Shown here: one piece after another, positions 10,831-55,644 of the stretch
Layout: each line of letters begins with the position of its first letter
Position numbering within the stretch: the stretch's first letter is position 1
Assembly (NCBI GenBank): GCA_964016885.1
Contig: CAXHJY010000519.1
Location: forward strand, 62,001 to 126,000
Source: Eledone cirrhosa
Lineage: Eukaryota
Length of the DNA stretch: 64,000 bases
Reading direction: 5' to 3'
Translations under genes and position numbers: made by a program
The notes under the pieces: generated by a model
What the model saw: only the letters and a program-made list of their open reading frames with translations
Database searches by the model: none
What the model was told of the DNA's origin: nothing

Positions 10831-10953
10831 GGAGGTGAGTTTTGTTGTAGTACAATAAAGCAATGCAGATATCGGATAAGTAGCACTCTACAGTTTGTAG
10901 GACTGGAGTATAAATAATATAAGATCAAAAGATGGTTAAAAGAGTTCCATGTA

Positions 10954-11020
10954 TTTTATTATGCGCATTTCAAAAACAAATATCATCATGCGATGACATT
11001 TGCGTTTTCGTCAGATAAAA
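10954..11020 (-). ncRNA. Type I hammerhead ribozyme
   Basis: TTTTAT-CTGACGA-stem II-GAAA-TGCGCA-TA-ATAAAA; palindromic stem III. Confidence 0.8.
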
Positions 11021-11125
11021 TAGGTTAAAAAACACTTGTGAATAGAGCAGTTTTAAATCAACATATGTTGATTTAAAACTGCACTATTCACAAGTGTTTT
11101 TTAACCTTCATATCATGTCTCCCTA

Positions 11126-11192
11126 TTTTATCTGACGAAAACGCAAATATCATCGCATGATGATATTTGTTTTTGAAATGCACATAATAAAA
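11126..11192 (+). ncRNA. Type I hammerhead ribozyme
   Basis: Stem I TTTTAT/ATAAAA; core CTGACGA; stem II GCAAATATCATC/GATGATATTTGT; GAAA-TGCACA-TA. Confidence 0.8.
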
Positions 11193-11279
11193 TACATGGA
11201 ACTCTTTTAACCATCTTTTGATCTTATATATATATATATATTGGTAAATGTGTGAATTCCTTGGTACAGTCAGGTATAA

Positions 11280-20137: not shown

Positions 20138-23100
20138 CATCATCATCATCATCATCACCGTTTTACGTCCGTTCTTCCACGCTAGCATGGGTTAGACGGG
20201 TTGTCCTGTTGTGGGCAGTGTCTGGTCGGCTGACCATGCCTTGCTCATACAGGAACTGATCTGGCTTGATTTCTACAGCTGGATGCCCTTCTGTGGGCAG
20301 TGTCTGGTCGGCTGACCATGCCTTGCTCATACAGGAACTGATCTGGCTTGATTTCTACAGCTGGATGCCCTTCCTAACACCAACCTCATTTACAGTGAGT
20401 GCTGGGTGCTTTTTCGTGGCGCCTACACGTCCACTTTACAGTGTGGGCTGGGTGCTTTTTTGCCGTGGCACCTCCACGACCACCTTGCGGTGGGGGGGGG
20501 GGGGGGCATATTGTTTATATGCTTCAGCATGTACCCATGGGAGGTCGGGTACCCTGTATTACTGCGTGACGCCAGAAGTCACGATCGTGTGTCATTGACT
20601 TTGAGAGGTGTAGTTGGGTAAGGTCGGCTTTTATCACCTCATCCCAAGTCATCTTGGGTCTCCCCACTCCGCGGTTTCCATCAACTTCTAGTGCTCTGCA
20701 CCTTTTTATGCAGCTGTCATCCTTCATACGCATCACATGTCCATACCAGCGTAACCGCCTCTCCTGCACGCAGCATTTGATTCCTCTTATGCTCAGTCTC
20801 TCTCTCAATTCATTTATGCTTTGTCGTTCACGTATATTACTGTTACACATCCATCGGAGCATGCAGGCTTCGTTTCTCTCTAATCTACGTAAGTCTTCCA
20901 CCTTCAGCGCCCAGGTCTCACTACCATGCAACATCGCTGTTCGGATACACGCATCATACAGTCTGCCTTTCATTCTGAGGGAGAAGCCTTTTGCAGCTAG
21001 CAGTGGTAGTAGTTCCCTAAACTTCTTCCATCCCGTTCTTACCCTAGTTATTGTACTTTCTGAGCACCCACCTCCGTTGCTAATTCGGTCACCTAGGTAG
21101 CAGAAGCTGTCTACTGTTTCTACAGGGCCCTCCCAGAGATTGGTGGTACTTGTTTCCTGTGGCTGTTTGCTTGCTGTTTCAGCACAGCTGCTGCATGTGA
21201 ATCCTACATTCTTAATTAAGCTTCCTGAGATCCCGCTACATCTCTTGTGTACCCATTGTTTGCATTTGGGGCAAAGAATGGAGTTCCTACCTACACCTTT
21301 CCTACATACTGAGCAAGGCCATTTCCCTGAGGGGATCTGGGTTCTGTTTTCTCGTCTACTTATAAGGACCTTAGTCTTTGTCATGTTGACTTTGAGGCCC
21401 TTTCTCTCTAGTCCCTGCTTCCAGGTTTGGAATTTATTCTCTAGTTCTACCATAGATTCAGCTATGAGTGCGAGGTCATCAGCATACAGGAGTTCCCATG
21501 GGCATCCGGTCTTAAACTCCTCCGTTATTGCCTGCAGGACTATGATGAACAGGAGAGGGCTAAGAACAGAGCCCTGGTGGACCTCAACCTGTACGCTAAA
21601 TTCCTCGCTATACTCATTGCCAATCCTAACTTTGCTGACTGCTCCCCTATACATGGCTTGTACCGCTTTCACAAGCCATTCATCTACTCCTAGTTTTCTA
21701 AGAGCCCACCAGATTACTGCACGTGGAACTCTGTCAAAGGCTTTCTCAAGGTCGACAAATGCCAAGTAGAGTGGCTTACTTTTAGCTAGGTACTTTTCCT
21801 GTAATTGCCTCACAAGGAAGAGCGCATCAGTGTTGCCTTTCCCTGGTACAAACCCAAATTGCATCTCGTCTATATTCACCCGGTCCCTAATCAGCTGTGC
21901 TATAACTCTTTCTGTTACTTTCATGACCTGGTCCATCAACTTTATACCTCTATAGTTTCCTCTATCTAGTGCATCGCCTTTACCTTTGTAGCAGTTGACA
22001 ATGATGCTACTGCACCAATCTTTTGGTATGGCCCCCTCTAGTATTACCTGGTTAACGATACGTGTGGTTATAGTGTGACCTACAGACCCAGATGCCTTCA
22101 GCATCTCGGCAGCTATACCCGATGGACCGGTTGCCTTCCCTATCTTCATATCTCTGATTGCCTTACTTACTACGCTGCCGCTGACTTGTACTGCTGGTCC
22201 CTCTATAGGGTCTACGTGGGGTAGGGTCTCTTCTTCCCATGCATTCTCCTCATTTAGTAATCTATCATAATGACTCTTCCATGCATCTTTCTTCTCAGCA
22301 CTTGTGAGGGCAAGCTCACCTTTATCATTCCGGATACACTTCTCTCCAATGACATCACAACTATCTCTGACACACTGCCTCGCAATCTTGAATACCTCCT
22401 GTTTCTGGTCCTCACGTTGTAAAACATGCTTGAATTTTCTATCCTCTGCTTCCCTCCTAGCTAAGTATACTTGTCGCCTAGCTTCCCTCTTGGTCTCTAT
22501 GTAATGTACCCTGCTCCCCCCGTTCTTCCATTCTTTCCATGCCTGTCTCTTGGCCTTGACTGCTTCATCTACCTTATTGTTCCACCACCAAGTCACTCTC
22601 CTCCTGCTTGAGGTCTTACTCCAGCCACAAACCTCATCCGTCGCCTCTAGTAAGTTATTTTTTAGGAACTCCCAGTTCTCTTCTACGTTAAATGTCTCTA
22701 TCTGTTCTTCTTTACTGTCGTAGGCGTTGAGTAAAATATCTTTAAATCTGTTACTGGTTGAGGGGACTTTCAGCTTCTAGATCTTTCTTATCCAGGTTGG
22801 CCTCTGTTTCAGGGCTCGTCTAGTTCTGACCGTGAGGTCGCTGACAACTAAGCTATGTTGGGATGTACATTCCTCACTAGGGAAGGCTTTTGTGTTTACG
22901 ACCGTCCATCTGTCACGTCCTCTGATGAGGATAAAATCTAACTGACTAGAGTGCTCCCCTGATCTATAGGTGATCAGGTGGTTGTCGGGTTTTTTAAAGT
23001 TTGTGTTACATATCGACATGTCATTGGCGTCGCAGAATTCTAGAAGTCTGAATCCTTCCTCATTCCTTGTGCCAACTCCATGGCCTCCATGTACTCTATT

Positions 23101-23624
23101 GAAGCCGTCGCAGTGTTTACCTACGTGTCCGTTAAAATCTCCTGCAATGATTAGGAAGTCCTTGTCGTCTGTTAGAGCAGTAGTGTGTATTAGGGACTCG
23201 TAAAACCTATCCTTAAGTTCGTCTGGCAGCCCCGATTGGGGTGCGTAAGCTGATATTATTGTGGTAATTGTCTTATTCAGGACTAGTCTGAGTTTAATGA
23301 TTCTTGCATTTACCCTGTACACTGAGATTACTTTATCTACCCACTTGTCAGCTAATAGTATACCTACACCACCCATCCCATCGTCATTTCCCACCCAGAA
23401 AAATTTGTAGCACTGGCTTTTTCCTACAAGGACTCTAGCAGACCCTCCTCTCCATCTAGTCTCTTGCACACAGCATACATCAACTTCCTTTCGCTCTAGC
23501 ATTTCTACGATTTCTCCTGCTCTTCCTTTCATTGAGCCTACATTGATGGTACCAACTCGGAGTTTTGGGCATTTGTCGACACTCTTAGGGGAGGGTCTCT
23601 GGGTTGGCGCTTCACGTGGGTGCT
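20138..23624 (-). mobile_element. Near full-length RTE-clade non-LTR retrotransposon
   Basis: APE endonuclease plus RT, 3'UTR and (GAT)n tail; flanked by TA arrays on both sides. Confidence 0.95.
20524..23624 (-). pseudogene. RTE ORF (APE endonuclease, RT, Cys-rich PHD-like finger) with one in-frame TAG at 22777-22779
   Basis: Motifs GTINVGS, VQETRW, AYAPQ, GDFNGH, LDFIL, SQH, NYRGIKL, QFGF, FVDLEKAFD, HQGSVLSP, YADD, YLG; the two track ORFs share a frame and the 180 bp between them is open. Confidence 0.93.
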
Positions 23625-28749: not shown

Positions 28750-28947
28750 ACCCGTCCCACCCTTGCAAGCAGGGAAAAGCGGACGTAAAATGATGATGAT
28801 GATGATGATGATGATATGCAAAAGTTCTATTTAAAATTGTTGGGATACAACAAGTAAATATTTATAACTGATATAAAGCACTCGACAAGTTTTTGGAGTA
28901 GATATACGATATTAAATAAATGGAAACTATATTTATAAAACCATATT

Positions 28948-29012
28948 TATTTCACTATACATATTTCAGGGATACCAAATTAAAATATGGTATGCCTTCA
29001 TCAGATAAAATA
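28948..29012 (-). ncRNA. Type I hammerhead ribozyme
   Basis: Reverse complement of 29076-29140. Confidence 0.78.
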
Positions 29013-29075
29013 TAATATATAAACAGTTTTATAAATAATTTTGACGTACCCTATTAGATGCAACCATTATTTTTG

Positions 29076-29140
29076 TATTTTATCTGATGAAGGCATACCA
29101 TATTTTAATTTGGTATCCCTGAAATATGTATAGTGAAATA
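29076..29140 (+). ncRNA. Type I hammerhead ribozyme
   Basis: TATTTTAT-CTGATGA-AGGCATACCA...TGGTATCCCT-GAAA-TATGTA-TA-GTGAAATA. Confidence 0.78.
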
Positions 29141-29197
29141 AATATGGTTTTATAAATATAGTTTCCATTTATTTAATATCGTATATATATATATATA

Positions 29198-29430
29198 TAT
29201 TTATTAAAATAACAGATTAAAGTTTAAGCAAAGAATCATTGCTTTCACCCTTAACGGGATCTTCTGACTTTCAAAAGATCCCGTTAAGGGTGAAAGCAAC
29301 GATTCTTTGCTTAAACTTTAATCTGTTATTTTAATAAATATTTACTCTACGGTTCTTATATATTTGATATATATTTATCCTTATCGAGCCCTCTTTGGAT
29401 TTTACTCTTCACATTTATTATTACTATATA
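29198..29430. mobile_element. TA-flanked module with a palindrome of about 68-bp arms (29198-29343)
   Basis: Arms nearly identical; the unpaired tail is shared with 5300-5395 (reverse) and 17912-17998. Confidence 0.75.
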
Positions 29431-29625
29431 TATATATACTTCCACTCGGATGCCATGCTTTGACGTATAGAGTTACGGCCCTTGCCATTCTGAGTTCAAA
29501 TCCCGCCGAGGTTAACTTTGCCTTTCATCCTTATGGGGTTGATAAAATAAAGTACCAGTAATACACTGGGTAATTGCTGGCCTTGTGCCAAAACTAGAAA
29601 CAATTATTACTATATATATATATAT

Positions 29626-29678
<53 letters not shown>

Positions 29679-29689
29679 TATTATGCCTT

Positions 29690-29859
29690 GCTTGCAAGGG
29701 TGGGACAGGTCCTTTTCAGCAAACATCTCTCCCTTCGTCACTCACCAATCTGATGTCACCTCTCACCACCTTCGCCCATGTTTTTTGTAGTCTTCCTCTA
29801 CTGCATCTTCCTTCCACTGGGATTTCTTGGCACTTCTTCATCCAGCGGCCATCTTTCAT

Positions 29860-29862
<3 letters not shown>
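29690..29862 (-). mobile_element. RTE 3' fragment
   Basis: Encodes RMKDGRWMKKCQEIPVEGRCSRGRLQKTW. Confidence 0.8.
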
Positions 29863-29895
<33 letters not shown>

Positions 29896-29904
29896 ACACA
29901 CACA

Positions 29905-29975
<71 letters not shown>

Positions 29976-30000
29976 CAGATAGAACTGCACAAGAACTCAG

Positions 30001-31700
30001 TGATGATGGTGGTGAGGGTGATGGTGATAGTGATGATGACGATGGTGATGGTGACGATGATGATGGTAGTGAATGTGATTGGGATGATGGTGGTGGTGAT
30101 GGGGGTGATGGTGATGGTGGTGATGGTGATGGTGGTGATGGTGGTGATGGTGGTGGTGGTGATGGTGGTGATGGTGATGGTGGTGATGGTGGTGATGGTG
30201 GTGATGGTGGTGGTGGTGATGGTGATGATGTGATGGTGATGATGGTGATGAAGGTGATGATGGTGATGAAGGTGATGGTGATGGTGATGGTGAAGGTGAT
30301 GGTGATGATGGTGATGGTGATGGTGAAGGTGATGGTGATGGTGAAGGTGGTGGTGGTGATGGTGGTGATGGTGATGGTGATGGTGATGGTGGTGGTGGTG
30401 ATGGTGGTGATGGTGATGGTGGTGATGGTGGTGATGGTGATGGTGATGATGGTGGTGGTGGTGATGAAGGTGATGGTGATGGTGATGGTGAAGGTGATGG
30501 TGATGATGGTGATGGTGGTGATGGTGATGGTGGTGATGGTGGTGATGGTGATGGTGATGATGGTGGTGGTGGTGATGGTGATGATGGTGGTGGTGGTGAT
30601 GGTGATGGTGGTGGTGGTGATGATGTGATGGTGATGATGGTGATGATGGTGATGAAGGTGATGGTGATGGTGATGGTGAAGGTGATGGTGATGGTGATGG
30701 TGAAGGTGATGGTGATGGTGATGGTGGTGATGGTGATGGTGATGATGGTGGTGGTGGTGATGAAGGTGATGGTGATGGTGATGGTGAAGGTGATGGTGAT
30801 GATGGTGATGGTGGTGATGGTGATGGTGGTGATGAAGGTGATGGTGATGGTGATGGTGAAGGTGATGGTGATGGTGAAGGTGATGGTGATGGTGATGGTG
30901 GTGATGGTGATGGTGATGATGGTGGTGGTGGTGATGAAGGTGATGGTGATGGTGATGGTGAAGGTGATGGTGATGATGGTGATGGTGGTGATGGTGATGG
31001 TGGTGATGGTGATGGTGATGATGGTGGTGGTGGTGATGAAGGTGATGGTGATGGTGATGGTGAAGGTGATGGTGATGGTGAAGGTGATGGTGATGGTGAT
31101 GGTGGTGATGGTGATGGTGATGATGGTGGTGGTGGTGATGAAGGTGATGGTGATGGTGATGGTGAAGGTGATGGTGATGATGGTGATGGTGGTGATGGTG
31201 ATGGTGGTGATGGTGATGGTGGTGATGGTGATGATGGTGGTGGTGGTGATGGTGATGGTGGTGGTGGTGATGATGTGATGGTGATGATGGTGATGATGGT
31301 GATGAAGGTGATGGTGATGGTGATGGTGAAGGTGATGGTGATGATGGTGATGGTGAAGGTGATGGTGATGGTGAAGGTGATGGTGATGGTGATGATGGTG
31401 ATGGTGGTGATGGTGATGATGATGGTGATGGTGATGGTGGTGGTGGTGGTGGTGGTGGTGATGGTGATGATGGTGATGGTGATGATGAATGACAATGGGG
31501 ATGATAGTGATGATAATTATAACAATGGTGATGATGATGATGATGAGGATGAGGGATGGCGATTATGATGATGATGCTTATGATGATGATGATGATGATG
31601 ATGGTGATAAGGGTGGGGATGATGATGATAACACTACTGACAATGGAAATGATAATGATGATAATTATAACGATGATGATGATGATAATTATGACGATAA
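30001..31700. repeat. Compound (GAT/GGT/GAA)n array
   Basis: Direct reading, with internally duplicated blocks. Confidence 0.95.
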
Positions 31701-31798
31701 GGACAACAATCATAGATTAACTATAATTATATATTACATCAGCTTCCTAACAAGCAAGCACATCTAATATTTATATATATTTAACATAGAGTAATCTA

Positions 31799-32152
31799 TG
31801 GAGGCACATGGCTTAGTGGTTAGAGCAGGTTGTGAGTTCAATTCTCAGACCGGGTGATGTGTTGTTTCCTTGAGCAAGACACTTTATTTCACATTGCTCC
31901 AGTTTACTCAGCTGTAGAAATGAGATGATAGGGACTGGGGTCCCTATCATTCCACTGTAAAGTGGTCGTGGAGGTGCCACGGCAAAAAAGCACCCAGCAC
32001 TCACTGTAAAGTGGACATGTAGGCACCACAGCAAAAAAAGCACCCAGCACTCACTGTAAATGAGGTTGGTGTTAGGAAGGGCATCCAGCTGTAGTCCCGT
32101 CCCACCCTTGCAAGCAGGGAAAAGCAGACGTAAAATGATGATGAAATGATGA
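31799..32152 (+). mobile_element. SINE family A with 7-bp TSD TAATCTA
   Basis: TSD at 31792-31798 and 32153-32159; empty site in the duplicate copy at 32325-32331. Confidence 0.9.
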
Positions 32153-32959
32153 TAATCTACAAGGTATTATCAATTGTTTAATAGAGTTTAAAATAGGTTT
32201 AGATTAACAGTTGACAAAATATAGTTTGTTAGTCTTAAGAGAATAACTTGATTTGCCCATCTTTATAAATTTATTATATTCATTAAATAAGCACATCTAA
32301 TATTTATATATATTTAACATAGAGTAATCTACAAGGTATTATCAATTGTTTAATAGAGTTTAAAATAGGTTCAGATTAACAGTTGACAAAATATAGTTTG
32401 TTAGTCTTAAGAGAATAACTTTATAAATTTATTATATTCATTAAATATACAAGCTAGTTTCTTCATCAATCTGTTCAAATAATCGATTAAATTGTTTGAA
32501 GTTGTTTTGGATTAAAACTGTAATGTCTTGGTCACAGATGATTAAATGTAATTATTTATTTCACTTTCATCAGGTTTATAAATTTTGTCAAAAATTAAAT
32601 TAAATTATTCATATATTTTTTTTTCAGTTTTCTAAAGAAGAAATATTTAATTTCTTTCTTTCTTTTCTATTTTTATTTTTTTTTGAAATGGTCGACAATA
32701 TCCTAGACCTCATTCGCTTACTGATTGGGGTGGTACTCATCAAACTGGACCAAGGAAACAATGTTTTCATTGGTCTTTTCATTGCTGATACTATATACCA
32801 GTTGAAACTCCTGGCAGAAGGACTAGCATGAAGTAATGCACTGCCTGGTGCATGAAGCAAACTTGCAACTTCACGATTGCGAATCCAATTCTTTATCCAC
32901 TAAGCCATGCATGGAGCATAACCCTACCATGAAGATTTATAGTGGAGAAAGACCTAAAG

Positions 32960-33276
32960 TTGTAATTTACCATATGGTTCATATATAAAATTTAGTTGGG
33001 AAATTTTATTTCAAATAGGAATCCTATGAAATGGATGGTTTTGTTTCATAGAACTAGAATTGGTTTTGGCTGGGTCGAACTAGAAGTAGAACTGGTTTTG
33101 GCTAGTTTGAACTAGAACTAGAGCTGGTTTTTGCTGGGTTGAACTAGAACGAGTTTTAGATGGGTTGAAGTAGAACTGGTTTTGGCTAGTTCGAACTAGA
33201 ATTAGAACTGGTTTTGGAAAGGTTGAACTAGAACTGGTTTTGGCTGGTTTGAACTAGAATTAGAACTGGTTTTGGC
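32960..33276. repeat. Left arm of an inverted duplication with an (aactagaactggttttggct)-type minisatellite
   Basis: Reverse complement of 34165-34853. Confidence 0.85.
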
Positions 33277-34038
33277 ATGGAGGATAACTCTACCACGAAG
33301 ATTTATAGTGGAGAAAGACCTAAACGTTATGAATTGAATAATGATAATGTAGTCAGAGATATACAAACATAAAGGTGCATGGCTTAGGGGCCAGAACCAG
33401 ATTTAGACCATGGGGAGCCAGAGGCAGTTCAGGTTTGGTCCCTCATATAATAAAATGCACCCACACACACACATATTTGTGTTGAATCCTCAACCACTTA
33501 ACTTTCATAACTTTGACAGGTTTCGGCCAGTATTAGCCCAGGCCATGTCATTGTTGAAACAACTGTAATACTTGTCAGAACTGATGAGGAGCTAACCAAT
33601 ATACAACCATTTGAAAATATTATAGGAGGTGATGGCCATGGTTGGGAAGCTTTGATCATTGGTCACTTTGATAAGGACTGACTTAGTTTTAAACAACAAC
33701 AACATTTTCAGTGAATAAGATCGCAGATCTGAAGGCCACTCACATCCTTCACAAATGAATTCTGTTGAGAAGGATGAGTACAATTCTCTATCAGCTTGAT
33801 TGTTGTTGTTGTTGTCAAACCTAATTGAGCAGAGCAATGATCAAAGGTATTCCCTCCATGGCCACCCTGTATTTATAGGGGTATATAGGACAACGTTATC
33901 TAATATGTACTTTTCTTGTTTAAAAATGTCAGTGCCCCAGCATGGCCTCAGCCTATCGTCTGAAACATGTAATAGGGTAAGTGAGTATGGTTTTAAGTAC
34001 ATTCAGCTACTATTTCCAGCAGGTCTTTTAGTAGTAGC

Positions 34039-34076
<38 letters not shown>

Positions 34077-34164
34077 CTGTTATTGTTGTTGTTTAGCTCC
34101 AGCTCAGTCCTGCTCAATCATCTCCACAATCAAAGGGATTACAGTGGCGATCATCACTACTTTG

Positions 34165-34853
34165 TTCAACCCAGCCAAAACCAGTTCTAGTTCAACCCAG
34201 CCAAAACCAGTTCTAGTTCAAACCAGCCAAAACCAGTTCTAGTTCAACCTTGCCAAAACCAGTTCTAATTCTAGTTCAAACTAGCCAAAACCAGTTCTAG
34301 CTCAACCCAACCAAACCAGCTCTAGTTCAACCTAACACAAACCAGTTCTAGTTCTGGTTCAAACCAGCCAAAACCAGTTATAGTTCAACCCAATCAAAAC
34401 CAGTTCTACTTCAAACTAGCCAAAACCAGTTTTACTTCGACCCATCTAAAACTAGTTCTAGTTCAACCCAGCCAAAACCAGCTCTAGTTCTAGTTCAAAC
34501 CAGCCAAAACCAGTTCTACTTCTAGTTTGTCCCAGCAAAACCAGTACTAGTTCAACCTAGCCCAAACCAGTTCTAATTCTAATTCAACCCATCCAAAACC
34601 AGTTCTAGTTCATCCCATCCAAAACCAGTTCTAGTTCAACCCATCCAAAACCAGTTCTAATTCAACCCAACCAGTTCTAGTTCAACCCAGCCCAAACCAG
34701 TTCTAGTTCAACCCAGCCCAAACCAGTTCTAGTTCAAACCAGCCAAAACCAATTCTAGTTCTATGAAACAAAACCATCCATTTCAAAGGATTCTTATTTG
34801 AAATAAAATTTCCCAACTAAATTTTATATATGAACCATATGGTAAGTTACAAA
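34165..34853. repeat. Right arm, expanded 24-30-bp minisatellite plus unique end
   Basis: Units ccagttctagttcaacccagccaaaa. Confidence 0.88.
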
Positions 34854-35379
34854 TTTAGTAATGAACTAATTAATAACTTCAGTAAATTCCACAAAATTCT
34901 TCATTAATTAATTGTAACAGAGTGTATATCTGATGAAATACAGCCACAAAAGGGTTAAATAACAGCAACCACATCAATAACATCAACAACAACACTTGTA
35001 CTGGGTATGAACTCACAACAGATAACCTGATAGCTTAATATCTCCCCTATTTAACTATTGCAGCAATACATAGCGCAACGTATGCTAATCTTTATGTAAT
35101 CCCAATATAATCTGGATAAACTGTTATATATAATATATTGATCTATTGTAGTATAATAACATACCGGATTTTATTCTATCAATGTTCAAATCTTCTCGAC
35201 TTGTCACTCAGTTTAAATATTAGCCCCCCTCCCCATGCCTGCACTCACGCACATATTCTTGGGTTAATTAAATAATTGATATACATACATATATATATAT
35301 ATATATGTGTGTGTGTGTATGTATGTATATATATGTATGTATGTATATATATGTGTATATGTATATATATATGTATTTA

Positions 35380-35418
<39 letters not shown>

Positions 35419-35492
35419 CCATATATATATATATCCATATATATATATATATATCCATATATATATATATATCCATATATATATATATATAT

Positions 35493-35530
<38 letters not shown>

Positions 35531-35580
35531 ATATATATATCCATATATATATCCATATATATATATATATATATATATAT

Positions 35581-35796
35581 GAAAAAGTATGACCCCGACG
35601 GCAGAGCTCAAGCCGTTTCGACGGCTATTTCTGGACTCCGTTTCGATGGCTATTTTGAGTCCAGAAATTGCTGTCGAAACGGCTTGAGCTCTGCCGTCGG
35701 GGTCATACTTTTTCCTATTTCCCACTCTACTACCCTAAGTATTGAGTACTCTGGTGCATTATGGTTCATCTGGTTCCTTACCACACTTCCTTTGTT
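35581..35796. mobile_element. TA-flanked module with terminal inversion (palindrome 35581-35714)
   Basis: gaaaaagtatgaccccgacgg...ccgtcggggtcatactttttc; second copy at 48806-48958. Confidence 0.8.
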
Positions 35797-36094
35797 ATAT
35801 ATATATATATATATCCATATATATATATATATCCATATATATATATATATCCATCATTTTGTTTGACCCGTTTAGCTTGTTCGCTTTTTTGGCTATGGTG
35901 GTTAATGGCTTCTTAACCATCGTCTCAGCGTGTATGACCATTTTAACTTATGTTTATAGCTCTGGTATCTTCTTCTTCATATCCATGGAGCGCTTGTCTG
36001 CACAATATGGAAGTTGCGTTTCGCTAATTTCTACCCGCCGAAATGCGATTCTCGCTAAATATATCCATATATATATATATATATATATATAGTT

Positions 36095-39010
36095 TCAAAA
36101 ATTGCGCATCTGGCCAAGTCTTTAGAATAGGAATTCAGATTAGGGTGTGCCCAGGACAAAGACAATGAAAAAAAACAACAACAAAAAAACGGGCAGTCCC
36201 ATTTCTTCAGCCAACCTCTGAAAATCAAGAGAGCTTTGGCCTGGGCAAACATCCCTCAACTTTGGAACCGTCTGGGTTGTCCAGAATTGATGGGAAAAGA
36301 CCTGACAGTCTTACCCTATGATGCTTTGTCCCAGATGCTTTGTCTGGGACGTCACAGTTAGTGATTCTTTTGCTTCTTCCCAGCGGTAGGGCGAGAGCTA
36401 CAGCATCCACAGCCGAACGGAACACCGTGATCTGTTGGCTAACTACATTTTCCAACCTGTGACATTCGAGACGGTTGAAGGAGTCGGGCTACTGACTGTG
36501 AGATTCTTATCTTCACTGGTGACTCACCTAACATAGGTAACTGGTGATGCTCGAGAGGGCGCTTGGTTGTTCCAGCACCACAGCCTCGCCATCACCCAAG
36601 GTAACTGGTTATGCTTGTGAGGGTGCTTGGTTTTTCAAGCACCCCAGCCTCGCCATCACCCAAGGTAACTGGTGATGCTCGAGAGGGCGCGTGGTTGTTC
36701 CAGCACCCCAGCCTCGCCATCACCCAAGGTAACTGGTTATGCTCGAAATGGCGCTTGGTTGTTCCAGCACCACAGCCTCGCCATCACCCAAGGTAACTGG
36801 TGATGCTCGAGAGGGCGCTTGGTTGTTCCAGCACCACAGCCTCGCCATCACCCAAGGTAACTGGTTATGCTCGAAATGGCGCTTGGTTGTTCCAGCACCA
36901 CAGCCTCGCCATCACCCAAGGTAACTGGTGATGCTCGAGAGGGCGCTTGGTTGTTCCAGCACCACAGCCTCGCCATCACCCAAGGTAACTGGTTATGCTC
37001 GAAATGGCGCTTGGTTGTTCCAGCACCCCAGCCTCGCCATCACCCAAGGTAACTGGTTATGCTCGAGAGGGCGCTTGGTTGTTCCAGCACCTCAGCCTCG
37101 CCATCACCCAAGGTAACTGGTTATGCTCGAGAGGGCGCTTGGTTGTTCCAGCACCTCAGCCTCGCCATCACCCAAGGTAACTGGTGATGCTCGAGAGGGC
37201 GCTTGGTTGTTCCAGCACCTCAGCCTCGCCATCACCCAAGGTAACTGGTTATGCTCGAGAGGGCGCTTGGTTGTTCCAGCACCTCAGCCTCGCCATCACC
37301 CAAGGTAACTGGTTATGCTCGAGAGGGCGCTTGGTTGTTCCAGCACCCCAGCCTCGCCATCACCCAAGGTAACTGGTTATGCTTGTGAGGGCGCTTGGTT
37401 GTTCCAGCATCTCAGCCTCGCCATCACCCTAGGTAACTGGTTATGCTCGAAATGGCGCTTGGTTGTTCCAGCACCTCAGCCTCGCCATCACCCAAGGTAA
37501 CTGGTTATGCTTGTGAGGGCGCTTGGTTGTTCCAGCACCTCAGCCTCGCCATCACCCTAGGTAACTGGTTATGCTTGTGAGGGCGCTTGGTTGTTCCAGC
37601 ACCTCAGCCTCGCCATCACCCAAGGTAACTGGTTATGCTTGTGAGGGCGCTTGGTTGTTCCAGCACCTCAGCCTCGCCATCACCCAAGGTAACTGGTTAT
37701 GCTTGTGAGGGCGCTTGGTTGTTCCAGCACCTCAGCCTCGCCATCACCCAAGGTAACTGGTTATGCTTGTGAGGGCGCTTGGTTGTTCCAGCACCTCAGC
37801 CTCGCCATCACCCAAGGTAACTGGTTATGCTTGTGAGGGTGCTTGGTTTTTCAAGCACCCCAGCCTCGCCATCACCCAAGGTAACTGGTGATGCTCGAGA
37901 GGGCGCGTGGTTGTTCCAGCACCCCAGCCTCGCCATCACCCAAGGTAACTGGTTATGCTCGAAATGGCGCTTGGTTGTTCCAGCACCACAGCCTCGCCAT
38001 CACCCAAGGTAACTGGTGATGCTCGAGAGGGCGCTTGGTTGTTCCAGCACCACAGCCTCGCCATCACCCAAGGTAACTGGTTATGCTCGAAATGGCGCTT
38101 GGTTGTTCCAGCACCACAGCCTCGCCATCACCCAAGGTAACTGGTGATGCTCGAGAGGGCGCTTGGTTGTTCCAGCACCACAGCCTCGCCATCACCCAAG
38201 GTAACTGGTTATGCTCGAAATGGCGCTTGGTTGTTCCAGCACCCCAGCCTCGCCATCACCCAAGGTAACTGGTTATGCTCGAGAGGGCGCTTGGTTGTTC
38301 CAGCACCTCAGCCTCGCCATCACCCAAGGTAACTGGTTATGCTCGAGAGGGCGCTTGGTTGTTCCAGCACCTCAGCCTCGCCATCACCCAAGGTAACTGG
38401 TGATGCTCGAGAGGGCGCTTGGTTGTTCCAGCACCTCAGCCTCGCCATCACCCAAGGTAACTGGTTATGCTCGAGAGGGCGCTTGGTTGTTCCAGCACCT
38501 CAGCCTCGCCATCACCCAAGGTAACTGGTTATGCTCGAGAGGGCGCTTGGTTGTTCCAGCACCCCAGCCTCGCCATCACCCAAGGTAACTGGTTATGCTT
38601 GTGAGGGCGCTTGGTTGTTCCAGCATCTCAGCCTCGCCATCACCCTAGGTAACTGGTTATGCTCGAAATGGCGCTTGGTTGTTCCAGCACCTCAGCCTCG
38701 CCATCACCCAAGGTAACTGGTTATGCTTGTGAGGGCGCTTGGTTGTTCCAGCACCTCAGCCTCGTCATCACCCTAGGTAACTGGTTATGCTTGTGAGGGC
38801 GCTTGGTTGTTCCAGCACCTCAGCCTCGCCATCACCCAAGGTAACTGGTTATGCTTGTGAGGGCGCTTGGTTGTTCCAGCACCTCAGCCTCGCCATCACC
38901 CAAGGTAACTGGTTATGCTTGTGAGGGCGCTTGGTTGTTCCAGCACCTCAGCCTCGCCATCACCCTAGGTAACACTGCGATCGTGCTGGCTTGCCTCAAA
39001 AACTGTGAGA
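36095..39010 (+). pseudogene. CRE-like non-LTR retrotransposon C-terminal restriction-like endonuclease remnant
   Basis: Translates IKRALAWANIP..LEPSGLSRIDGKRPDSLTL..VWDVTVSDSFAS..YIFQPVTFET..TGDAREGAWLFQH.SLAITQGN..TAIVLA, with frameshifts. Confidence 0.8.
36536..38973. repeat. 64-bp satellite, 38 units arranged as a 2 x 19-mer higher-order repeat
   Basis: GGTAAC at 36536 and 38968 are 2432 bp apart (38 x 64); the variant pattern recurs at a 1216-bp offset. Confidence 0.96.
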
Positions 39011-40182
39011 GAGTTTTCCCAGTACTCCTTGCTATACTGTTATCTTTTGTTCTGGTAGTGGCTCATTTGTCAACCCCTTTCGCCTGCCTTTTGTTGTATG
39101 TGGTCCTAGATGTGTGTATTACCTGCTTGTGTGTTTCTTTCTCTTTCTTTTTTTCCTTTCCCTTTCCTTTGTATATATTATATTTGTTTGTGTTTTCATT
39201 CTGTAAGCATTATATTATCATATTTTTATACAACTACAAATTTTACTTATATATGATTGTTCTTCGATAATCAATATATAAGACCTCGTCGATGTGTGTG
39301 TCTGTTATAGAGTAATGAAACACGTCCAGTGCTGCGTTCGTCGCTTTTACTCTGCAGACCTACGATCAAAAGCGTTCCAGCCAACACCGAACCTTTTAAC
39401 TTAATTTGTAGGAAATTTGGCTGCTATTTTTAGCAGCAGGTGAAGCGTTGCTGTACAATAGTTTGTGGGCTAGGTGTTATTGGTTTATTCTCAGGATGAA
39501 TCCCGAAGCAGCTACAGATTGCCCACCCACGGTAACCGTGTGTCTAACGACCTCTGAATAACTTGGTTGGGCGTCCTAGAGCAGAATAGAGCCTATCAAT
39601 AGAACGTGCTGGATTGCCTTAGTGAATATATTCTTTGAATATGCTCAGAGACGGTCAGCTTTGAGGCTGTTCCCATTAAACTGGGTTTCCAATATCCCTA
39701 TATGATTGAAAGGAAATAACAGTTGTCTCCCTTGATAATAGATCTATTTCTTTCACATCGGAAAGAAGGAATATGGACCCTGGATGTCAATATAAGGTTT
39801 CAGGTACGTTTGTCAGTCGTGATTGAGCAGACAATTAGCTAGGGACGTTCCAGGAGTGACTATCTCGTCTTATTTTGAAACAGTGTATCTCGGACTATAT
39901 TATCCAATGGGTCCTTATTTTAATAAAAACTGTAAAGGGCTATTTGAGAAAGACGTTTGTCTTAATATTAGTAGCCTGGACGACTACGTAGGGACACCTC
40001 ATTGACTACTTCTTCTTTATAAGCACAAATAAAGAAAAGTAAAACAACAACAAAAAAATTAACTAGAGATGGAACCACCGGAAATCGAAACCGGCACGTT
40101 GTGCATCTCAAGAAAACGTTTATATACATATAAATGTATGCGCATGCATGCACCAACATGTAGAAAAAAAATCATAGTAAAT

Positions 40183-40192
40183 AAAAAAAAAA
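40183..40192 (-). terminator. Pol III oligo-T terminator of tRNA-Ala
   Basis: Run of T about 10 nt downstream of the tRNA 3' end. Confidence 0.75.
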
Positions 40193-40202
40193 TAGCTTTC
40201 AC

Positions 40203-40275
40203 TGGAGAATCCGGGCATCGATCCCGGTACCTCTCGCATGCTAAGCGAGCGCTCTACCATCTGAGCTAATTCCCC
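40203..40275 (-). tRNA. tRNA-Ala: tRNA-Ala(AGC)
   Basis: GGGGAATTAGCTCAGATGGTAGAGCGCTCGCTTAGCATGCGAGAGGTACCGGGATCGATGCCCGGATTCTCCA; full cloverleaf, G3:U70 pair, AGC anticodon, upstream TATA-like tract. Confidence 0.97.
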
Positions 40276-40894
40276 ACCATTTAAATAACCGCTGAACTAG
40301 TCTATATATATATTCTATTTAAGTATGTTGTTTTGGCGGGTGTTATTTCTTAACTAAATATTACATTTTTAATAATTATTACTATATAATTAAAGATTTA
40401 TTGTTATAGTTATTATTAGAAGTCTTTATATGTTTATTATTTCTATATTATAGACGTGTTAGTTGTCTTAGTTAGTGTGACTGCCTTTCACCATGTGACA
40501 GTAGCTACTGGTCTTTCTTTTCCTCGCTACAATCCGTCATTGTCTCAGTATCACGCAGCATTTGTCTACTTTATAACATTATATATTTATATTTACATTA
40601 TAAACTTACAAACACACACAACCAAAACCGGGGACGACATGCATACTTAATTACACGCCTAAACACGAGACGTTGTAATAAATTTTGAGTAAAGTCACAG
40701 ACTTGTTAGAAATTCCAGTGAGTGCGGAGAGATATTATAACACAGTAGCACTTAAACTTCAAGGCATAGCTTATCAAGAGTTACCTCCCGTGATTTCTAC
40801 AAATGCCTTTTATATTGTACGCACACATGTACACACTAAAAACTACAGAAACATACACATATAGAACACACACACACATGCACAGAAACGTACA

Positions 40895-41205
40895 TGACTG
40901 ACTGGCACTCCGTCGGTTACGACGATGAGTGTTCCAGTTGATCCGATCAACGGAACAGCCTGCTCGTGAAATATACACTTGAAATATACACTGAGCATTC
41001 CACAGACACGCGCACACTTTAACGTAGTTCTCGGGGAGATTCAGCGTGACACAGAATGTGACAAAGCTGGCTCCTCAAATTACAGACACGATTCATTTGT
41101 TTGCCAGCTGAGTGGACTGAAGTAAAGTGTCTTACTCAAGGACACAGAACACCGCCGGGAATCGAATTCCCGACCTTACGATTGTGAGCCAAATGCACTA
41201 ACCAC
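40895..41205 (-). mobile_element. tRNA-derived SINE (additional family)
   Basis: Head tggttagtgcatttggctcacaatcgtaaggtcgggaattcgattccc on the minus strand; body related to the 124-bp satellite. Confidence 0.7.
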
Positions 41206-41296
41206 ATATACGGAGTTCTTTCTAATGACCGTTTGCAACAGATTTCTGTCTCTAGGAGTCTTTGCCTGATATTTATAAGCTATTTTATAGCAATAC

Positions 41297-41500
41297 CAGG
41301 GATTGTCCGGGCACTTCCTCTTCACGCTGGTCGCCATTGAGACCTCAGGCGTACTTGGACCCTGTACTGCTGAGAACCTCTGCAGGATCGGAACATCAAC
41401 AGTTAGTTTGAGGAAGGAGCCCCATGAGGTGGGGTGGCTGTTGCACTGGGTGTCGTTGGCCATTGTCCGTGGGAATGCTTTTGAGGTTGTGGGGGGGCAG
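41297..41500 (+). pseudogene. Second CRE-like endonuclease C-terminal fragment
   Basis: Translates YQGLSGHFLFTLVAIETSGVLGP...EVGWLLHWVSLAIVRGNA. Confidence 0.72.
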
Positions 41501-41570
41501 CTCCAACACCACCGCACCCATCTACACACACACACATATATATATAGAAAAACAAAGAAAAGAATCCCCA

Positions 41571-41613
41571 GTCACTGAAGAGGTCACAGAATGTGTGACG
41601 AAAGAACTTTGAC
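41571..41613 (+). ncRNA. Minimal hammerhead-like motif within a TA-flanked element (41547-41831)
   Basis: GTCA-CTGAAGA-G-GTCACA/TGTGAC-GAAA-GAACTT-TGAC. Confidence 0.6.
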
Positions 41614-41974
41614 AATATATGAACAACCGTCCGGTTATGGAACCAACCAACCAACCAACCGGAAATTTATAAATTCTTCAATTTATAAATTTAATTTATA
41701 ATAAATTGGAGTGAAAGCAACTGGTGCATGTGTTTTTTATTGGCAACATGACCCTCCCAAAGTATAACAATATCGGTTTCAACACACGTTTTCAGATAAA
41801 GAATCTTGCTAAACAAATTCAGAAACGAAATATATATATATATATCCAAAGGTTTATTTAATTTGTTGGGATTCAACAAGCTTAAACATTTTTATAACTA
41901 ATATAAAGCACTCAACAGGATAGTGGAGTAAATATACAATATATTAATAAATGGAAACTATATTTATAAAACTG

Positions 41975-42040
41975 TATTTTATCTGATGAAAGTGCACCAT
42001 AATTTACCTTGGTGGCCCTTGAAATATATATAATAAAATA
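41975..42040 (+). ncRNA. Type I hammerhead ribozyme in a partially inverted module (41848-42070)
   Basis: TATTTTAT-CTGATGA-AAGTGCACCA...TGGTGGCCCTT-GAAA-TATATA-TA-ATAAAATA. Confidence 0.75.
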
Positions 42041-42071
42041 ATTATGGTTTTATAAATATAGTTTCCATTTA

Positions 42072-42262
42072 GGGCGGTGGATTGGCAGTATCGGTAAGGG
42101 TCGGACGCCATGCTTTGAAGCATAGAGTTACCTCCCTTTATGATCTGAGTTCAAATCCCGCCGAGGTTAACTTTGCCTTTCATCCTTACGGGGTCGATAA
42201 AATAAAGTACCAGTAATGCACTGGAATAATTGCTGGCCTTGTGCCAAAAGTAGAAACAATTA
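42072..42262 (+). mobile_element. SINE family C
   Basis: Full copy. Confidence 0.88.
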
Positions 42263-42626
42263 ATATATTGTGTATATATATATATGATGATGATGATATA
42301 TATCCTCAAAGGGAAAGCACAATCAACCATAGGCAGTCATCTTTGTTTTCCATTTTTCTCATGACAGGCTGTAGAAATAGGGCCCAGAACCCAACGAAAC
42401 TTGAGTACCTCTTTATGTCACTTGTAATTATTTATATATATATATATATATATATCCAACTATGAGATTTTGATATTACTTATTTTGAGAACAATACCTG
42501 AACATTAGTATGAGTGGCTGGTTACAGCCAGTTTGAACAGAAAGAGGTGAGAGAATTCTGGCCAGATATGGCCTGTTTAGATGCTAAAGGGTTAATAAAT
42601 AGAAAATATCTTTATAATACCATATT

Positions 42627-42686
42627 TATTTTATTATACGTATTTCAAGGACACTAAATTTTAGTGTGCTTTCATCAGATAAAATA
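42627..42686 (-). ncRNA. Type I hammerhead ribozyme
   Basis: TATTTTAT-CTGATGA-AAGCACACTAA/TTAGTGTCCTT-GAAA-TACGTA-TA-ATAAAATA. Confidence 0.8.
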
Positions 42687-43073
42687 TAATTATTTCTACT
42701 TTTGGCACAAGGCCAGCAATTATCCAGTTCATTACTGGTACTTTATTTTTTCGACCCGGTAAGGATGAAAGGCAAAGTTAACCTCGACGAGATTTGAGGT
42801 TGATAAAATATAATATATGATGTTAAGATATTGACTTCATCATCATCATCATCGTCATCGTTTAATGTCTATCTTCCACGCTAGCATGGGTTTATACTAT
42901 TAAGTTTACACTAAGGTATGTCAATAAGAAAATAAATATGGTATTATAAAGATATTTTCCATTTATAAATATTGTTAATATTAATAATACTCCAGATAAA
43001 TTCTGTAGAGTGCTTCATATCTGTTATAAAATTAATTCTGTTGAATAATAATCAGCAAACCATATAACTCATT

Positions 43074-43111
<38 letters not shown>

Positions 43112-49525: not shown

Positions 49526-50069
49526 AATCAAAATTAAATGATAGCATTCTATATGTAGGTGGGCCGCCTTTATTTTATCAACCTCATAAGCATGAAAGGC
49601 AAAATGAACTTCGGCGGGATTTGAACTCAGACCATAAAGGGCCTTAACTCTATGCTGTAAAGCATGGCATTTGAACCTCTACTGATACTGCCAATCCACT
49701 GCTATATATATATATACTCCAGAGTATATTTATAATCATGAAGTACAAGTCAATAGGTTATAATTCAATTTGTTTATTCATAATCGCTGTTATATATATT
49801 TCAGAGATAACCGTTATGCAACAGTTATGACTTCATCAGATAGCTAGAAGTTGAACAGAAAAACAAAGAAGAAATAAAGCTTACTTCTGTTGTTTTGATT
49901 CATTGATATGCTCTGGGCTGATATTTGGTGTTTGTCTCTCAAAGCATCAGTAGCATATGACTTAGAATAAGCAGCCTCACATCATCAGTAGAAGAGGTGT
50001 AAAAGGCAACTATCTACTGGTTAGATTTAGCTTCATCATTCCATCATTAAGTCTATTGAATTCCTTTAC

Positions 50070-50222
50070 GGAGCCATTGTCTGAGATTTGGCTTCAACCT
50101 TTTCTGGAATCAGGTTAGTCAGGGAAACCAATCCCAACTGGTGCTGCAAAATACATACAAGGTCAGGCCCTGACTGACCCAATTCCAGAAAAAGTTGAAG
50201 CCAAATCTTAGACAATGGCGCC
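50070..50222. repeat. Fold-back element (about 55-bp arms)
   Basis: ggagccattgtctgagatttggcttcaac versus gttgaagccaaatcttagacaatggcgcc. Confidence 0.8.
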
Positions 50223-50235
50223 ACTAAGCAATATG

Positions 50236-51467
50236 ATAGCTAGATAGTTAGATAGATATTTAGGAAGGTAGATCGATAGACAGATAGGTGGAAAGATTTA
50301 TTGATAGATAAATAGTTAGATAGACAGATAGGTAGATAGAAAAATAGATAGTTAGATAGATATGTTTCTTTATTAGCCACAGGGGCACAAAAGAAGGGGA
50401 CAAATACAAAGGGGGAAGTTTACATACAATAAAAACGTGCAAAATGTTATCACAAATGGAATTTAAAAAGTTAGTCGATTTTCCCCAATAGAGGGAGACA
50501 GTTTATATGGGTAACACATACCCCCGAAAAAAAATGTGCAACCCTCATCTCCAGGAGTTCGAAGAGTTTGTACTCCTTTCCTCTCCTCCTCCTTTTCCTC
50601 AACCTACAGGCTGATATAGAGAGAAGACCCATTCACTCGGGCCATTCTCGCCACTTTCACCCACCTTTCATAAAACTTGCTGGGGTACAGCACCTCTCTC
50701 TCCATCCTGATTCTTCTTGCAAAGTGGTATTTGACAAAAAGAATCAGTTGATATATAGATAGATAGATAGGAAGATAGATAGATAGATAGACAGATAGGT
50801 GGAAAGATAGATATATTTCTTTATTAGTCACAAGGGCGCACAAGAAAACGGGACAAAACAAAGACATGCCGGGGATTTTACATACAATCGTGTAAAAATA
50901 TGAAAGAAACAAATATAACAATCGAAATCCCCAATAGGGGAGGGGAAGCGCCACAAATGGGTTGTTTAATACCCCGTCGATAGAACAACCCTCAACTTCA
51001 GGAACGTGTTGTGCAAGTGCTCCATTCTTCCTTTTGCTCTCTGGAAAGATAGATATGTTTCTTTATTAGCCACAGGGGCACAAAAGAAGGGGACAAATAT
51101 GGAAAGATAGATAGATAGTTAGATAGATAGATATATTTCTTTATTTACCATAAAGGCATAAAAAAGAAGGGACAAATACAAAAGGGGAGTTTACATACAA
51201 TCGAGTAAAAAGGGTATAAAATGAAAATAATCGAAAACAACCTCAAAAGGGAGGGGACGTGATGGGGGTTGCACACACCCGATAGTTAGATAGATATATT
51301 TCTTTATTAGCCACAGGGGCACAAAAGAAGGGGACAAATACAAAGATAGATAGATAGATAGACAGATAGATGGAAAGATAGATAGATAGATAGATGTCTT
51401 TCTTTTTTTTTTATAGATAGATAGTTAGTTAGACAGATAGATAGCTAGAGCTAGATAAATAGATAGC

Positions 51468-51500
<33 letters not shown>

Positions 51501-52095
51501 GTCTATTTTTCTTTCTTTTTTTTTAGATAGATAGATAGATAGTTAGATAGATATATTTCTTTTATTTGCCACTAGGGCATCAAAAGTGGGACAAGTACAA
51601 AGGGGGGAGTTTACACAAAAAGGCGTCCTCAATAAGGAGGAGGCAATAACAAAATATAAAAATAAAATAAGATATAACAAAAAATAAAATTTTTAACAAA
51701 ATCCTCAATAGAGAGGAGGCGCCTTGGGGGGTCGCACACACCCCCGAAAAAAGTGTGCAACCCTTCTCCTCAGGAGCACAGAGAAGGGGTGCTCCCTTGG
51801 TCTTTCATCTTCCTCACCTATAGTCTGATGTAGAGTGAAGGCCCATTCACACGGGCCATTCTCGCCACTTTCACCCATCTTTCATAGAAACGGCTGGGGT
51901 GCAGCACCTCTCTCTCCATCCTGATCCTTCTTCCGAAATGATATCGGAAGAAACGGACCAGTTGTTGGCCAGAGAGAAAGGTGCCCGACCTCAGTCCTTT
52001 CAGACGCGTCCACCATACAACCTCTTTCGCCATGGCTATTACGCACAGAAACACCGCCTCTGCTTCAGATAGATAGTTAGATAGATAGATATATA
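50236..52095. repeat. (GATA)n array interrupted by six LINE 3' ends
   Basis: Direct reading. Confidence 0.92.
50361..52066 (-). mobile_element. Cluster of six 5'-truncated Tx1/L1-like LINE 3' ends
   Basis: Copies at about 50361-50750, 50813-51041, 51055-51099, 51133-51280, 51297-51343 and 51553-52066; shared end tttgtcccc...gtgcccctgtggctAATAAAgaaa; longest copies encode MAKEVVWWTR...FFRYHFGRRIRMEREVL..F.ERW. Confidence 0.8.
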
Positions 52096-52825: not shown

Positions 52826-53015
52826 TAAGACGTGGTAGAGGTAGATCACGAAAAACATGGGCGGAGGTGGTGAGAACAGACCTCCGATCATTGAAGCTCA
52901 CGGTGGAGATGACGAGGTACCGTGACGAGTGGAGAGATGCTGTGCTGAATAAGACCCGTCCCACCCTTGCAAGCAGGGAAAAGCGGACGTAAAATGATGA
53001 TGATGATGATGATGA
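52826..53015 (+). mobile_element. RTE 3' fragment inserted into a hammerhead-bearing element
   Basis: Nearly identical to 3750-3930; host sequence matches 46500-46700. Confidence 0.85.

Positions 53016-54045: not shown

Positions 54046-54080
<35 letters not shown>

Positions 54081-55530: not shown

Positions 55531-55644
<114 letters not shown>

What the first reader, a model, noticed from the sequence alone, without database searches (positions are those of the whole stretch)
28948..42686. Stem II covariation among three diverged copies of one hammerhead family
The copies at 29076, 41975 and 42627(-) keep TATTTTAT-CTGATGA and GAAA invariant, while stem II changes on both strands together: ATACCA/TGGTAT, CACCA/TGGTG and ACACTAA/TTAGTGT. 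Stem III varies but stays self-complementary (TATGTA, TATATA, TACGTA). This is in-window evidence of selection on RNA structure in the source elements.
Basis: partly seen in the sequence, partly recalled or inferred. Interest (0 to 1): 0.7.

Follow-up and report, generated by a model that had tools for sequence, protein, structure and literature searches.

The report
Penelope retroelement hammerheads, covarying stem
The three motifs are end-pieces of three different subfamilies of a known kind of jumping gene (Hydra-clade Penelope-like elements), and across its subfamilies one stem of the predicted self-cutting RNA changes on both strands together while one cytosine pair stays mismatched, so the fold was likely under selection in the parent elements, as already reported for such elements.

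Summary
Real, but largely known. All three motifs are present; each is a 5'-truncated stub of a different subfamily of a Hydra-clade Penelope-like retroelement (RT + C-terminal GIY-YIG; L052, L173, L254). A tight motif pattern hits 49,231 places in the genome versus 5 for its control. Across 22 rows, 8 of 9 stem II pairs change on both sides. G-U outnumbers A-C 23:2. Inherited variants keep pairing (6 of 7), private ones mostly break it (34 of 45; p=0.003). A tree-aware test supports II.2, II.5, II.6 and II.9, but only loosely. The 8-nt stem III palindrome fits dimer cleavage. Cutting is untested, and copy ends show no pile-up at the cut site. Family-level covariation was described in 2014 (PMC4209133). 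This scan already reported the C-C mismatch and the twin tail hairpins on other DNA of this genome.

The parts
28814..29072 (-). Inverted arm of insertion 1 (subfamily A): pLTR stub with the ~90-nt tail, ending in microsatellite
   Evidence: 97.7% to natural long copy L191; sequence
28948..29012 (-). Hammerhead motif, identical inverted twin of copy 1 (not an independent copy)
29073..29189 (+). Direct arm of insertion 1, ending about 40-48 nt after the motif in (TA)n
   Evidence: 99% to L191
29076..29140 (+). Copy 1 hammerhead (subfamily A, young): stem I 29076-83/29133-40, core 29084-90, stem II 29091-29120 with C29094.C29117 mismatch, GAAA 29121-24, palindrome 29124-31, predicted cut after A29132
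   Evidence: 29 other copies listed at 100% over query 8-115; 1,769 pattern hits
41846..41974 (-). Inverted arm of insertion 2 (subfamily B) with tail, 5'-truncated about 10-15 nt downstream of the predicted cut site, so it has no hammerhead core
41975..42040 (+). Copy 2 hammerhead (subfamily B): core 41983-89, stem II 41990-42020, T41993.C42017 mismatch (C.C in most of the subfamily), bulge G42014, predicted cut after A42032
42041..42071 (+). 3' flank of copy 2, then cut off by an unrelated short repeat
42592..42695 (-). Arm of insertion 3 (subfamily C) carrying copy 3
   Evidence: 97-98% to L094/L086
42627..42686 (-). Copy 3 hammerhead (subfamily C): core 42678-72, stem II 42671-47 with C42668.C42650 mismatch, palindrome AUACGUAU, predicted cut after 42635
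42888..43076 (+). Opposite arm of insertion 3: same subfamily, hammerhead removed by an arm-to-arm deletion near 42925, tail ending in (TA)n
10952..11022 (-). Further hammerhead of the same lineage (subfamily F; C.U mismatch, TGCGCA palindrome)
11124..11194 (+). Inverted partner, subfamily F
49783..49847 (-). More distant hammerhead with the same C.C mismatch and TATATA palindrome but a different stem I; link to an ORF not tested

Best explanation
The three motifs are type I hammerhead-shaped sequences in 5'-truncated, inverted end-pieces of three subfamilies of a Hydra-clade Penelope-like retroelement; their stem II differences were likely fixed by selection on the RNA fold in the active parent elements, and the RNA is predicted to cut only when two motifs pair through the 8-nt stem III palindrome. 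In full-length copies one motif lies about 180-210 nt before the RT-endonuclease start codon and a second lies 3.7-4.2 kb further on (shown). A tandem transcript would thus carry two motifs that can form the double hammerhead (inferred). Cutting would be slow or conditional. Inserted copies mostly keep the junction intact (shown), so they derive from uncut or re-ligated RNA (inferred). The fixed pyrimidine mismatch at stem II position 4 is likely a docking point, for a contact with the extended stem I or with the element's protein (inferred, partner unknown). After insertion the copies decay neutrally (shown for 98 copies).
For: Element identity: L052 reads inverted stub + motif + ORF + motif + tail. 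L173 holds an uninterrupted 808-codon frame between two motifs, and L254, L191, L086, L160 and L137 link subfamilies A, C and E to related ORFs. The RWx, DKT, CxCX5C, CxxC and CxH motifs match the Hydra definition. Covariation: 15 of 21 pairs overall and 8 of 9 in stem II change on both sides, 93.1% of 462 cells paired, score 0.471 against 0.238 shuffled and 0.09-0.18 for slid registers; RNAalifold finds the same 9 stem II pairs unaided. Tree-aware G-test: II.2, II.5, II.6, II.9 and III.3 have two-set E<0.05 in 21 rows, II.8 joins after bulge correction. G-U 23 vs A-C 2 of 336 cells. In 98 copies not picked on the motif, 6 of 7 shared stem variants keep pairing against 11 of 45 private ones (p=0.003); 9 private and 0 shared variants in the core. 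Dimer: the two inner palindrome pairs cannot close within one molecule, yet pair in 22 of 22 and 21 of 22 rows and covary. The double hammerhead is 11.6-15.9 kcal/mol below two active monomers in all 6 sequences and is the cofold minimum for copy 3. Literature: PLE hammerheads cut weakly and as dimers (PMC4209133); an Anolis PLE hammerhead cuts only with protein and insertion uses uncut RNA (PMC11167929).
Against: No cleavage or expression data. The tree-aware null under-corrects: the top-ranked pair in 21 rows is non-helical, three non-helical pairs pass the same threshold in the 18-row set, and with all-pairs correction only II.9 (21 rows) or II.2 (18 rows) of the helix pairs reach E<0.05. 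Parsimony gives two independent double changes only for II.2 and II.6 in the 18-row set. The tree was built from the same alignment. In 5 of 6 cofolds an alternative dimer is 1.3-8.2 kcal/mol more stable than the active one. Monomer folding z-scores of the three copies are weak (-1.4, -0.05, -1.95). 5' breakpoints of 33 core-less copies spread from -100 to +10 (32 of them between -43 and +10) with no peak at the cut. II.1 does not covary (3' U fixed; A 14, G 5, U 2 of 21), so the canonical G10.1-C11.1 pair is absent. No partner for the mismatch was found.
Confidence: 0.75

Rival explanations
1. The fold is selected but not for cutting: the motif is a structural or protein-binding element of the element's RNA (5' UTR, template for reverse transcription), and its catalytic core is kept for shape.
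For: 28 of 30 consecutive copies chosen only by the 3' flank run upstream through the predicted cut site. No breakpoint peak at the cut. Hammerhead mutants did not affect insertion in vitro in Poseidon PAc (PMC11167929, passages). Canonical G10.1-C11.1 is absent.
Against: All 12 core positions other than N7 are invariant in 22 of 22 rows, including C3, G8, G12 and the UH site. The palindrome covaries where only a dimer can pair. Re-ligated circular RNA would also give intact junctions.
Confidence: 0.15
2. The paired changes are shared ancestry plus DNA-level palindrome correction (template switching in a fold-back-prone element), not selection on RNA.
For: The element makes inverted twins and arm-to-arm deletions. 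Few independent double changes per pair; non-helical pairs also score.
Against: Template switching makes perfect inverted repeats, but the mismatch persists in 21 of 21 subfamily rows and the bulge in three. G-U intermediates are strand-specific (23 vs 2). Shared variants keep pairs and private ones do not.
Confidence: 0.06
3. The motif sits in a 5' UTR intron and is removed by splicing, so that only unspliced RNA can be cut.
For: A GGTAYGTCA word resembling a 5' splice site lies 20-50 nt upstream in most parsed copies. Penelope of Drosophila virilis has an intron ending at helix I (PMC4209133).
Against: The GT is missing in several subfamilies (GATATGTCA, TATCATGTC). No conserved YAG acceptor precedes the start codon across A, B, C and E. 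No RNA reads were available.
Confidence: 0.04

Closest known systems
Hydra clade of Penelope-like elements and their hammerheads (Craig et al. 2021, PMC8557442; read: passages, section 11, supplement part 2 and passages), including Hydra-1_Obim
   Same: C-terminal GIY-YIG ORF with RWx, DKT, CxCX5C, CxxC and CxH motifs; (TA)n targets; inverted 5'-truncated copies and tails; type I hammerhead with an N...U pair of bases flanking helix II and a palindromic stem III of about 8 nt.
   Different: Units are 3.7-4.2 kb (most published ones <3 kb). Stem I is 8 bp, A-U-rich and nearly fixed. Stem II is 9-15 steps long with a fixed pyrimidine mismatch at step 4, which I did not see by eye in the 26 Hydra rows of File S2. 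Hydra-1_Obim has a different hammerhead sequence.
Minimal and palindromic-helix-III hammerheads of metazoan PLEs (Cervera and De la Pena 2014, PMC4209133; read: parts 1-2 of 4, supplement file 2 part 2 and passages; file 1 not available)
   Same: In pLTRs, dispersed as single or opposite-strand pairs, long helix II, palindromic loop 3, predicted dimer action. [quoted passage not shown]
   Different: No G10.1-C11.1 pair; longer palindrome (8 nt) and longer helix I; internal mismatch in helix II. No cephalopod appears in the alignment rows I saw.
Poseidon PAc hammerhead and tail (Frangieh et al. 2024, PMC11167929; read: passages)
   Same: Motif just upstream of the RT start region; two internal RT start sites that define the tail; insertion from uncut RNA.
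   Different: Different PLE clade. Here the motif lies wholly in the 5' UTR, the tail is about 90 nt, and both ends fall on a UAUAU stretch that resembles the (TA)n target.
Non-LTR retrozymes of animals (PMC7229834, search listing only; bioRxiv 10.64898/2026.07.22.740005, part 1 of 5)
   Same: Type I hammerhead with palindromic stem III, related to PLE pLTRs.
   Different: These copies are not head-to-tail arrays of short units; they are truncated ends of coding elements.

Membership tests
Type I hammerhead ribozyme | Core CUGANGA / GAAA / UH in type I order | tested here: met
   Invariant in 22 of 22 rows, N7 varies
Type I hammerhead ribozyme | Three helices around the core, supported by covariation | tested here: met
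   stem I covaries only through the distant rows J, K and I
Type I hammerhead ribozyme | G10.1-C11.1 closing pair (typical, not obligatory) | tested here: not met
   A-U 14, G-U 5, U-U 2 of 21; Hydra-clade rows in File S2 often show the same N...U flank
Type I hammerhead ribozyme | Match to an Rfam hammerhead model | tested here: not met
   No hammerhead family listed
Type I hammerhead ribozyme | Self-cleavage at the UH site | not testable with these tools
   Only indirect: no breakpoint peak at the site
Dimer-type PLE hammerhead | Palindromic stem III too short to close in one molecule; dimer favoured | tested here: met
   (computed energies only)
Hydra-clade PLE | Single ORF with RT and C-terminal GIY-YIG endonuclease | tested here: met
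   L173 808-codon frame; L052, L191 broken copies. Pfam gives no RT hit for it; 37 homologues at 28-41% identity
Hydra-clade PLE | RWK-type motif, DKT, CxCX5C linker, CxxC and CxH | tested here: met
   RRLRW/RRIRW, SDKTNN, CNCPVKNKC, CNLC, CLH, compared by eye
Hydra-clade PLE | (TA)n insertion preference, inverted truncated copies, tail | tested here: met
Hydra-clade PLE | Placement inside the Hydra clade on an RT tree | not tested
   Published Hydra proteins were seen only as paper text and were not available as stored sequences
Non-LTR retrozyme | Head-to-tail tandem short units, each with a hammerhead | tested here: not met
   Copies are single or inverted stubs, or 3.7-4.2 kb coding units

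The most novel reading that the evidence does not exclude
This lineage uses a distinct hammerhead architecture in which a C-C mismatch four steps into a long stem II replaces the usual loop II contact and acts as a switch, docking on the extended stem I or on the element's own RT protein, so that cutting is licensed only in the two-motif ribonucleoprotein. Cutting at the downstream motif would then separate the coding RNA from the twin hairpins where reverse transcription starts, making the ribozyme a built-in brake on transposition.
Probability: 0.2. Interest if true: 0.65.

Novelty: new variant of a known kind. Interest (0 to 1): 0.3.

Why it matters
The covariation itself confirms what is published for PLE hammerheads. 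The value lies in the natural experiment: about 50,000-60,000 pattern matches in some 20 sampled subfamilies show which positions the parent elements could not change. The core, the palindrome and one mismatched cytosine pair are fixed while the neighbouring pairs swap freely. That gives ready-made mutants for the open question of what PLE hammerheads do and why they need protein or a partner to cut. The scan has already flagged the mismatch several times in this genome, so this window adds confirmation and little else.

Tried and rejected
Rfam scans found no hammerhead family. Pfam found no RT or GIY-YIG family for two element proteins; identity rests on motifs and homologues. One metagenome scan for related loci found none (183 pattern hits, 0 confirmed), so the mismatch could not be checked outside this genome. 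The run search listed no RNA holder; laying 2 of its 3 contig sets (kind not on record, one sample) gave no joint that looks like an intron and says nothing on expression. Intron reading: 5'-splice-like word present, no conserved acceptor; kept as a minor rival. Cleavage footprint in copy ends: none. Retrozyme reading rejected (no tandem units). My first reading of the upstream AT-rich 3' region as an antisense ORF was dropped once the sense ORF was found. Lunse et al. 2017 (RNA Biol, PLE hammerhead dimers) could not be read; it is known to me only through the review PMC6765202 (passages) and may describe related variants. Searches for a stem II mismatch in print gave 0 papers (hammerhead ribozyme + C-C mismatch + stem II; five terms); (hammerhead ribozyme + octopus) listed 4 papers, of which only Craig 2021 was relevant. 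R-scape itself was not available; my own version is approximate.

Full report
Observation. The three motifs are at the stated places. An anchored pattern finds six in the window and none in 100 shuffles: the three named, an identical inverted twin of copy 1 (28948-29012), and an inverted pair at 10952-11022 and 11124-11194. A seventh, more distant motif lies at 49783-49847. Each reads 8-bp stem I, CUGANGA, a long stem II, GAAA, a 6-nt palindromic insert, UA, stem I. Rfam lists no hammerhead family here.

What carries them. The window lies in a 3.0-Gb, repeat-rich animal genome; that it is octopus-like is my reading of its repeats and of one cephalopod-labelled homologue. Each named copy belongs to its own subfamily with many near-identical copies: A (29 other copies listed at 100% over query positions 8-115; 1,769 pattern hits), B and C. 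A motif-wide pattern gives 49,231 matches against 5 for the reversed control; a 3'-side pattern gives 61,560 against 513. Long copies show the element. L052 has an inverted stub, a motif, an RT plus GIY-YIG ORF with breaks, a long AT/CT-rich 3' region, a second motif and a tail. L173 has an uninterrupted 808-codon frame between two motifs, and related ORFs adjoin subfamilies A, C and E. The protein has the RWx, DKT, CxCX5C, CxxC and CxH motifs that define the Hydra clade (compared by eye, no tree). Pfam does not recognise it. The window insertions are 5'-truncated inverted pairs in (TA)n.

Covariation between subfamilies. From 313 distinct parsed motifs (458 before removing overlaps) I chose by hand one natural copy for each of 21 sequence types plus the window's copy 2; some types rest on one or two loci. 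The unguided MAFFT alignment folds by RNAalifold into the 9 stem II pairs, 8 with changes on both sides. For the whole structure, 93.1% of 462 cells pair, 15 of 21 pairs change on both sides, and the score is 0.471 against 0.238 for shuffles and at most 0.184 for slid registers. The shuffle ignores kinship, so I ran a tree-aware permutation in the style of R-scape. In 21 rows II.2, II.5, II.6, II.9 and III.3 have two-set E below 0.05, and II.8 joins when the bulge of three rows is skipped. The test is lenient: the top pair is non-helical, three non-helical pairs pass in the 18-row set without the distant rows J, K and I, and under all-pairs correction only II.9 (21 rows) or II.2 (18 rows) pass. 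Parsimony counts about two independent double changes each for II.2 and II.6. Two further tests need no tree. G-U cells outnumber A-C cells 23 to 2 among 336, as expected for structure on this strand (cells are not independent). Among 98 copies not selected on the motif (of 306 anchored copies; 146 search hits dropped, the rest truncated or more than 6 differences from any reference), 6 of 7 stem variants shared by three or more loci keep pairing against 11 of 45 private ones (p=0.003), and the core has 9 private and no shared variants. So selection acted in the parents, and inserted copies decay.

In subfamily B the stem is GC-ACCA / TGGT-bulge-GC; the bulge is G in only 3 of 64 copies, so the quoted CACCA/TGGTG is this copy's register. 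The U-A to C-G change is still real, and subfamily H (L168) has a clean ACACCA/TGGTGT. Part of that sample was selected by patterns holding one of the two C's, but rows J, K and I were incidental finds with different stem I and keep it. II.1 does not covary (3' U fixed), like the N...U flank in published Hydra rows.

How it likely works. The two inner pairs of the palindrome cannot close within one molecule, yet they stay complementary and covary. The double-hammerhead dimer is 11.6-15.9 kcal/mol below two active monomers in six of six sequences and is the cofold minimum for copy 3; in the other five an inactive dimer is somewhat more stable. A tandem transcript has one motif about 180-210 nt before the start codon and one 3.7-4.2 kb downstream, which could pair (inferred). 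Genomic copies keep the junction: 28 of 30 consecutive copies chosen by the 3' flank alone extend through the site, three of them with internal deletions, one starts within a few bases of it and one further down; 33 core-less copies with a mappable breakpoint, of 304, show no peak at the cut. This fits insertion from uncut RNA, as shown for Poseidon PAc (PMC11167929), but also from cut and re-ligated circles (model of PMC4209133). Copy 3' ends fall at two sites, about 43-51 and 135-144 nt after the motif (A: 31 and 35 of 70; B: 31 and 19 of 64), each a UAUAU stretch just before a duplicated small hairpin. Cutting at the downstream motif would part the coding RNA from these hairpins (inferred). 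The role of the mismatch is not shown; a docking site is my best guess.

Relation to what is known. Hammerheads in PLE ends, their palindromic loop III, weak dimer cleavage and family-level compensatory changes are described in PMC4209133; Hydra-clade elements with hammerheads, one from an octopus, in PMC8557442. I did not see a fixed helix II mismatch in the rows of either supplement that I read, and two searches found no paper, but Lunse et al. 2017 and one supplement file of PMC4209133 were not readable. Earlier notes of this scan report the mismatch and the twin hairpins on other DNA of this genome; I saw both features before reading those notes. Verdict: a real, well-supported but expected covariation in a known kind of element, with one modest structural variant; interest 0.3.

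Noticed in passing
L254, L052, L175 5' UTR; window 28814-28910 (-), 41846-41930 (-), 42985-43076 (+): Copy 3' ends fall at two sites about 90 nt apart, each a TATAT stretch directly before a duplicated hairpin (ACTC...GAGT, then GCTC...GAGC); likely the RT start signal. Already noted by this scan (e1-10309281, e1-9570883).
   Followed up: partly
20-50 nt upstream of stem I in most subfamilies (e.g. window 29045-29053, - strand): Conserved GGTAYGTCA word; could be a 5' splice site, an initiator or a structural element. GT is lost in some subfamilies.
   Followed up: partly
L147:521-656 (-), L094:1506-1635 (-): Stem I extends beyond 8 bp after a one-base bulge into a further A-U-rich helix whose arms differ between subfamilies A/B/H/D and C.
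   Followed up: partly
window 42888-43076 (+); L032, L092, L298, L318: Several copies have lost all or part of the hammerhead by deletion between the paired arms, as if reverse transcription or replication skipped the hairpin.
   Followed up: no
window 15904+, 28517+, 41575+, 46583+, 52758+, 9576-, 33581+: Other CTGANGA motifs with short stem II and GAAA or a variant, apparently from unrelated repeat families.
   Followed up: no
window 29219-29319: Near-perfect 100-nt fold-back repeat right after insertion 1, also seen next to other copies (L003, L029); a separate repeat family.
   Followed up: no
window 42072-42260 and 42686-42800: A very common short repeat interrupts insertions 2 and 3 and the ORF of L052; I recall it as an octopus tRNA-derived SINE (from memory, not tested).
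   Followed up: no
window 40202-40276 (-): tRNA-Ala(AGC) gene.
   Followed up: no
window 20524-23622 (-): Nearly complete LINE-type endonuclease + RT reading frames.
   Followed up: no
L207, L218, L204, L314: A branch of subfamily A varies N7 (T, A, G) and has an unpaired step at II.8 with a longer outer helix.
   Followed up: no
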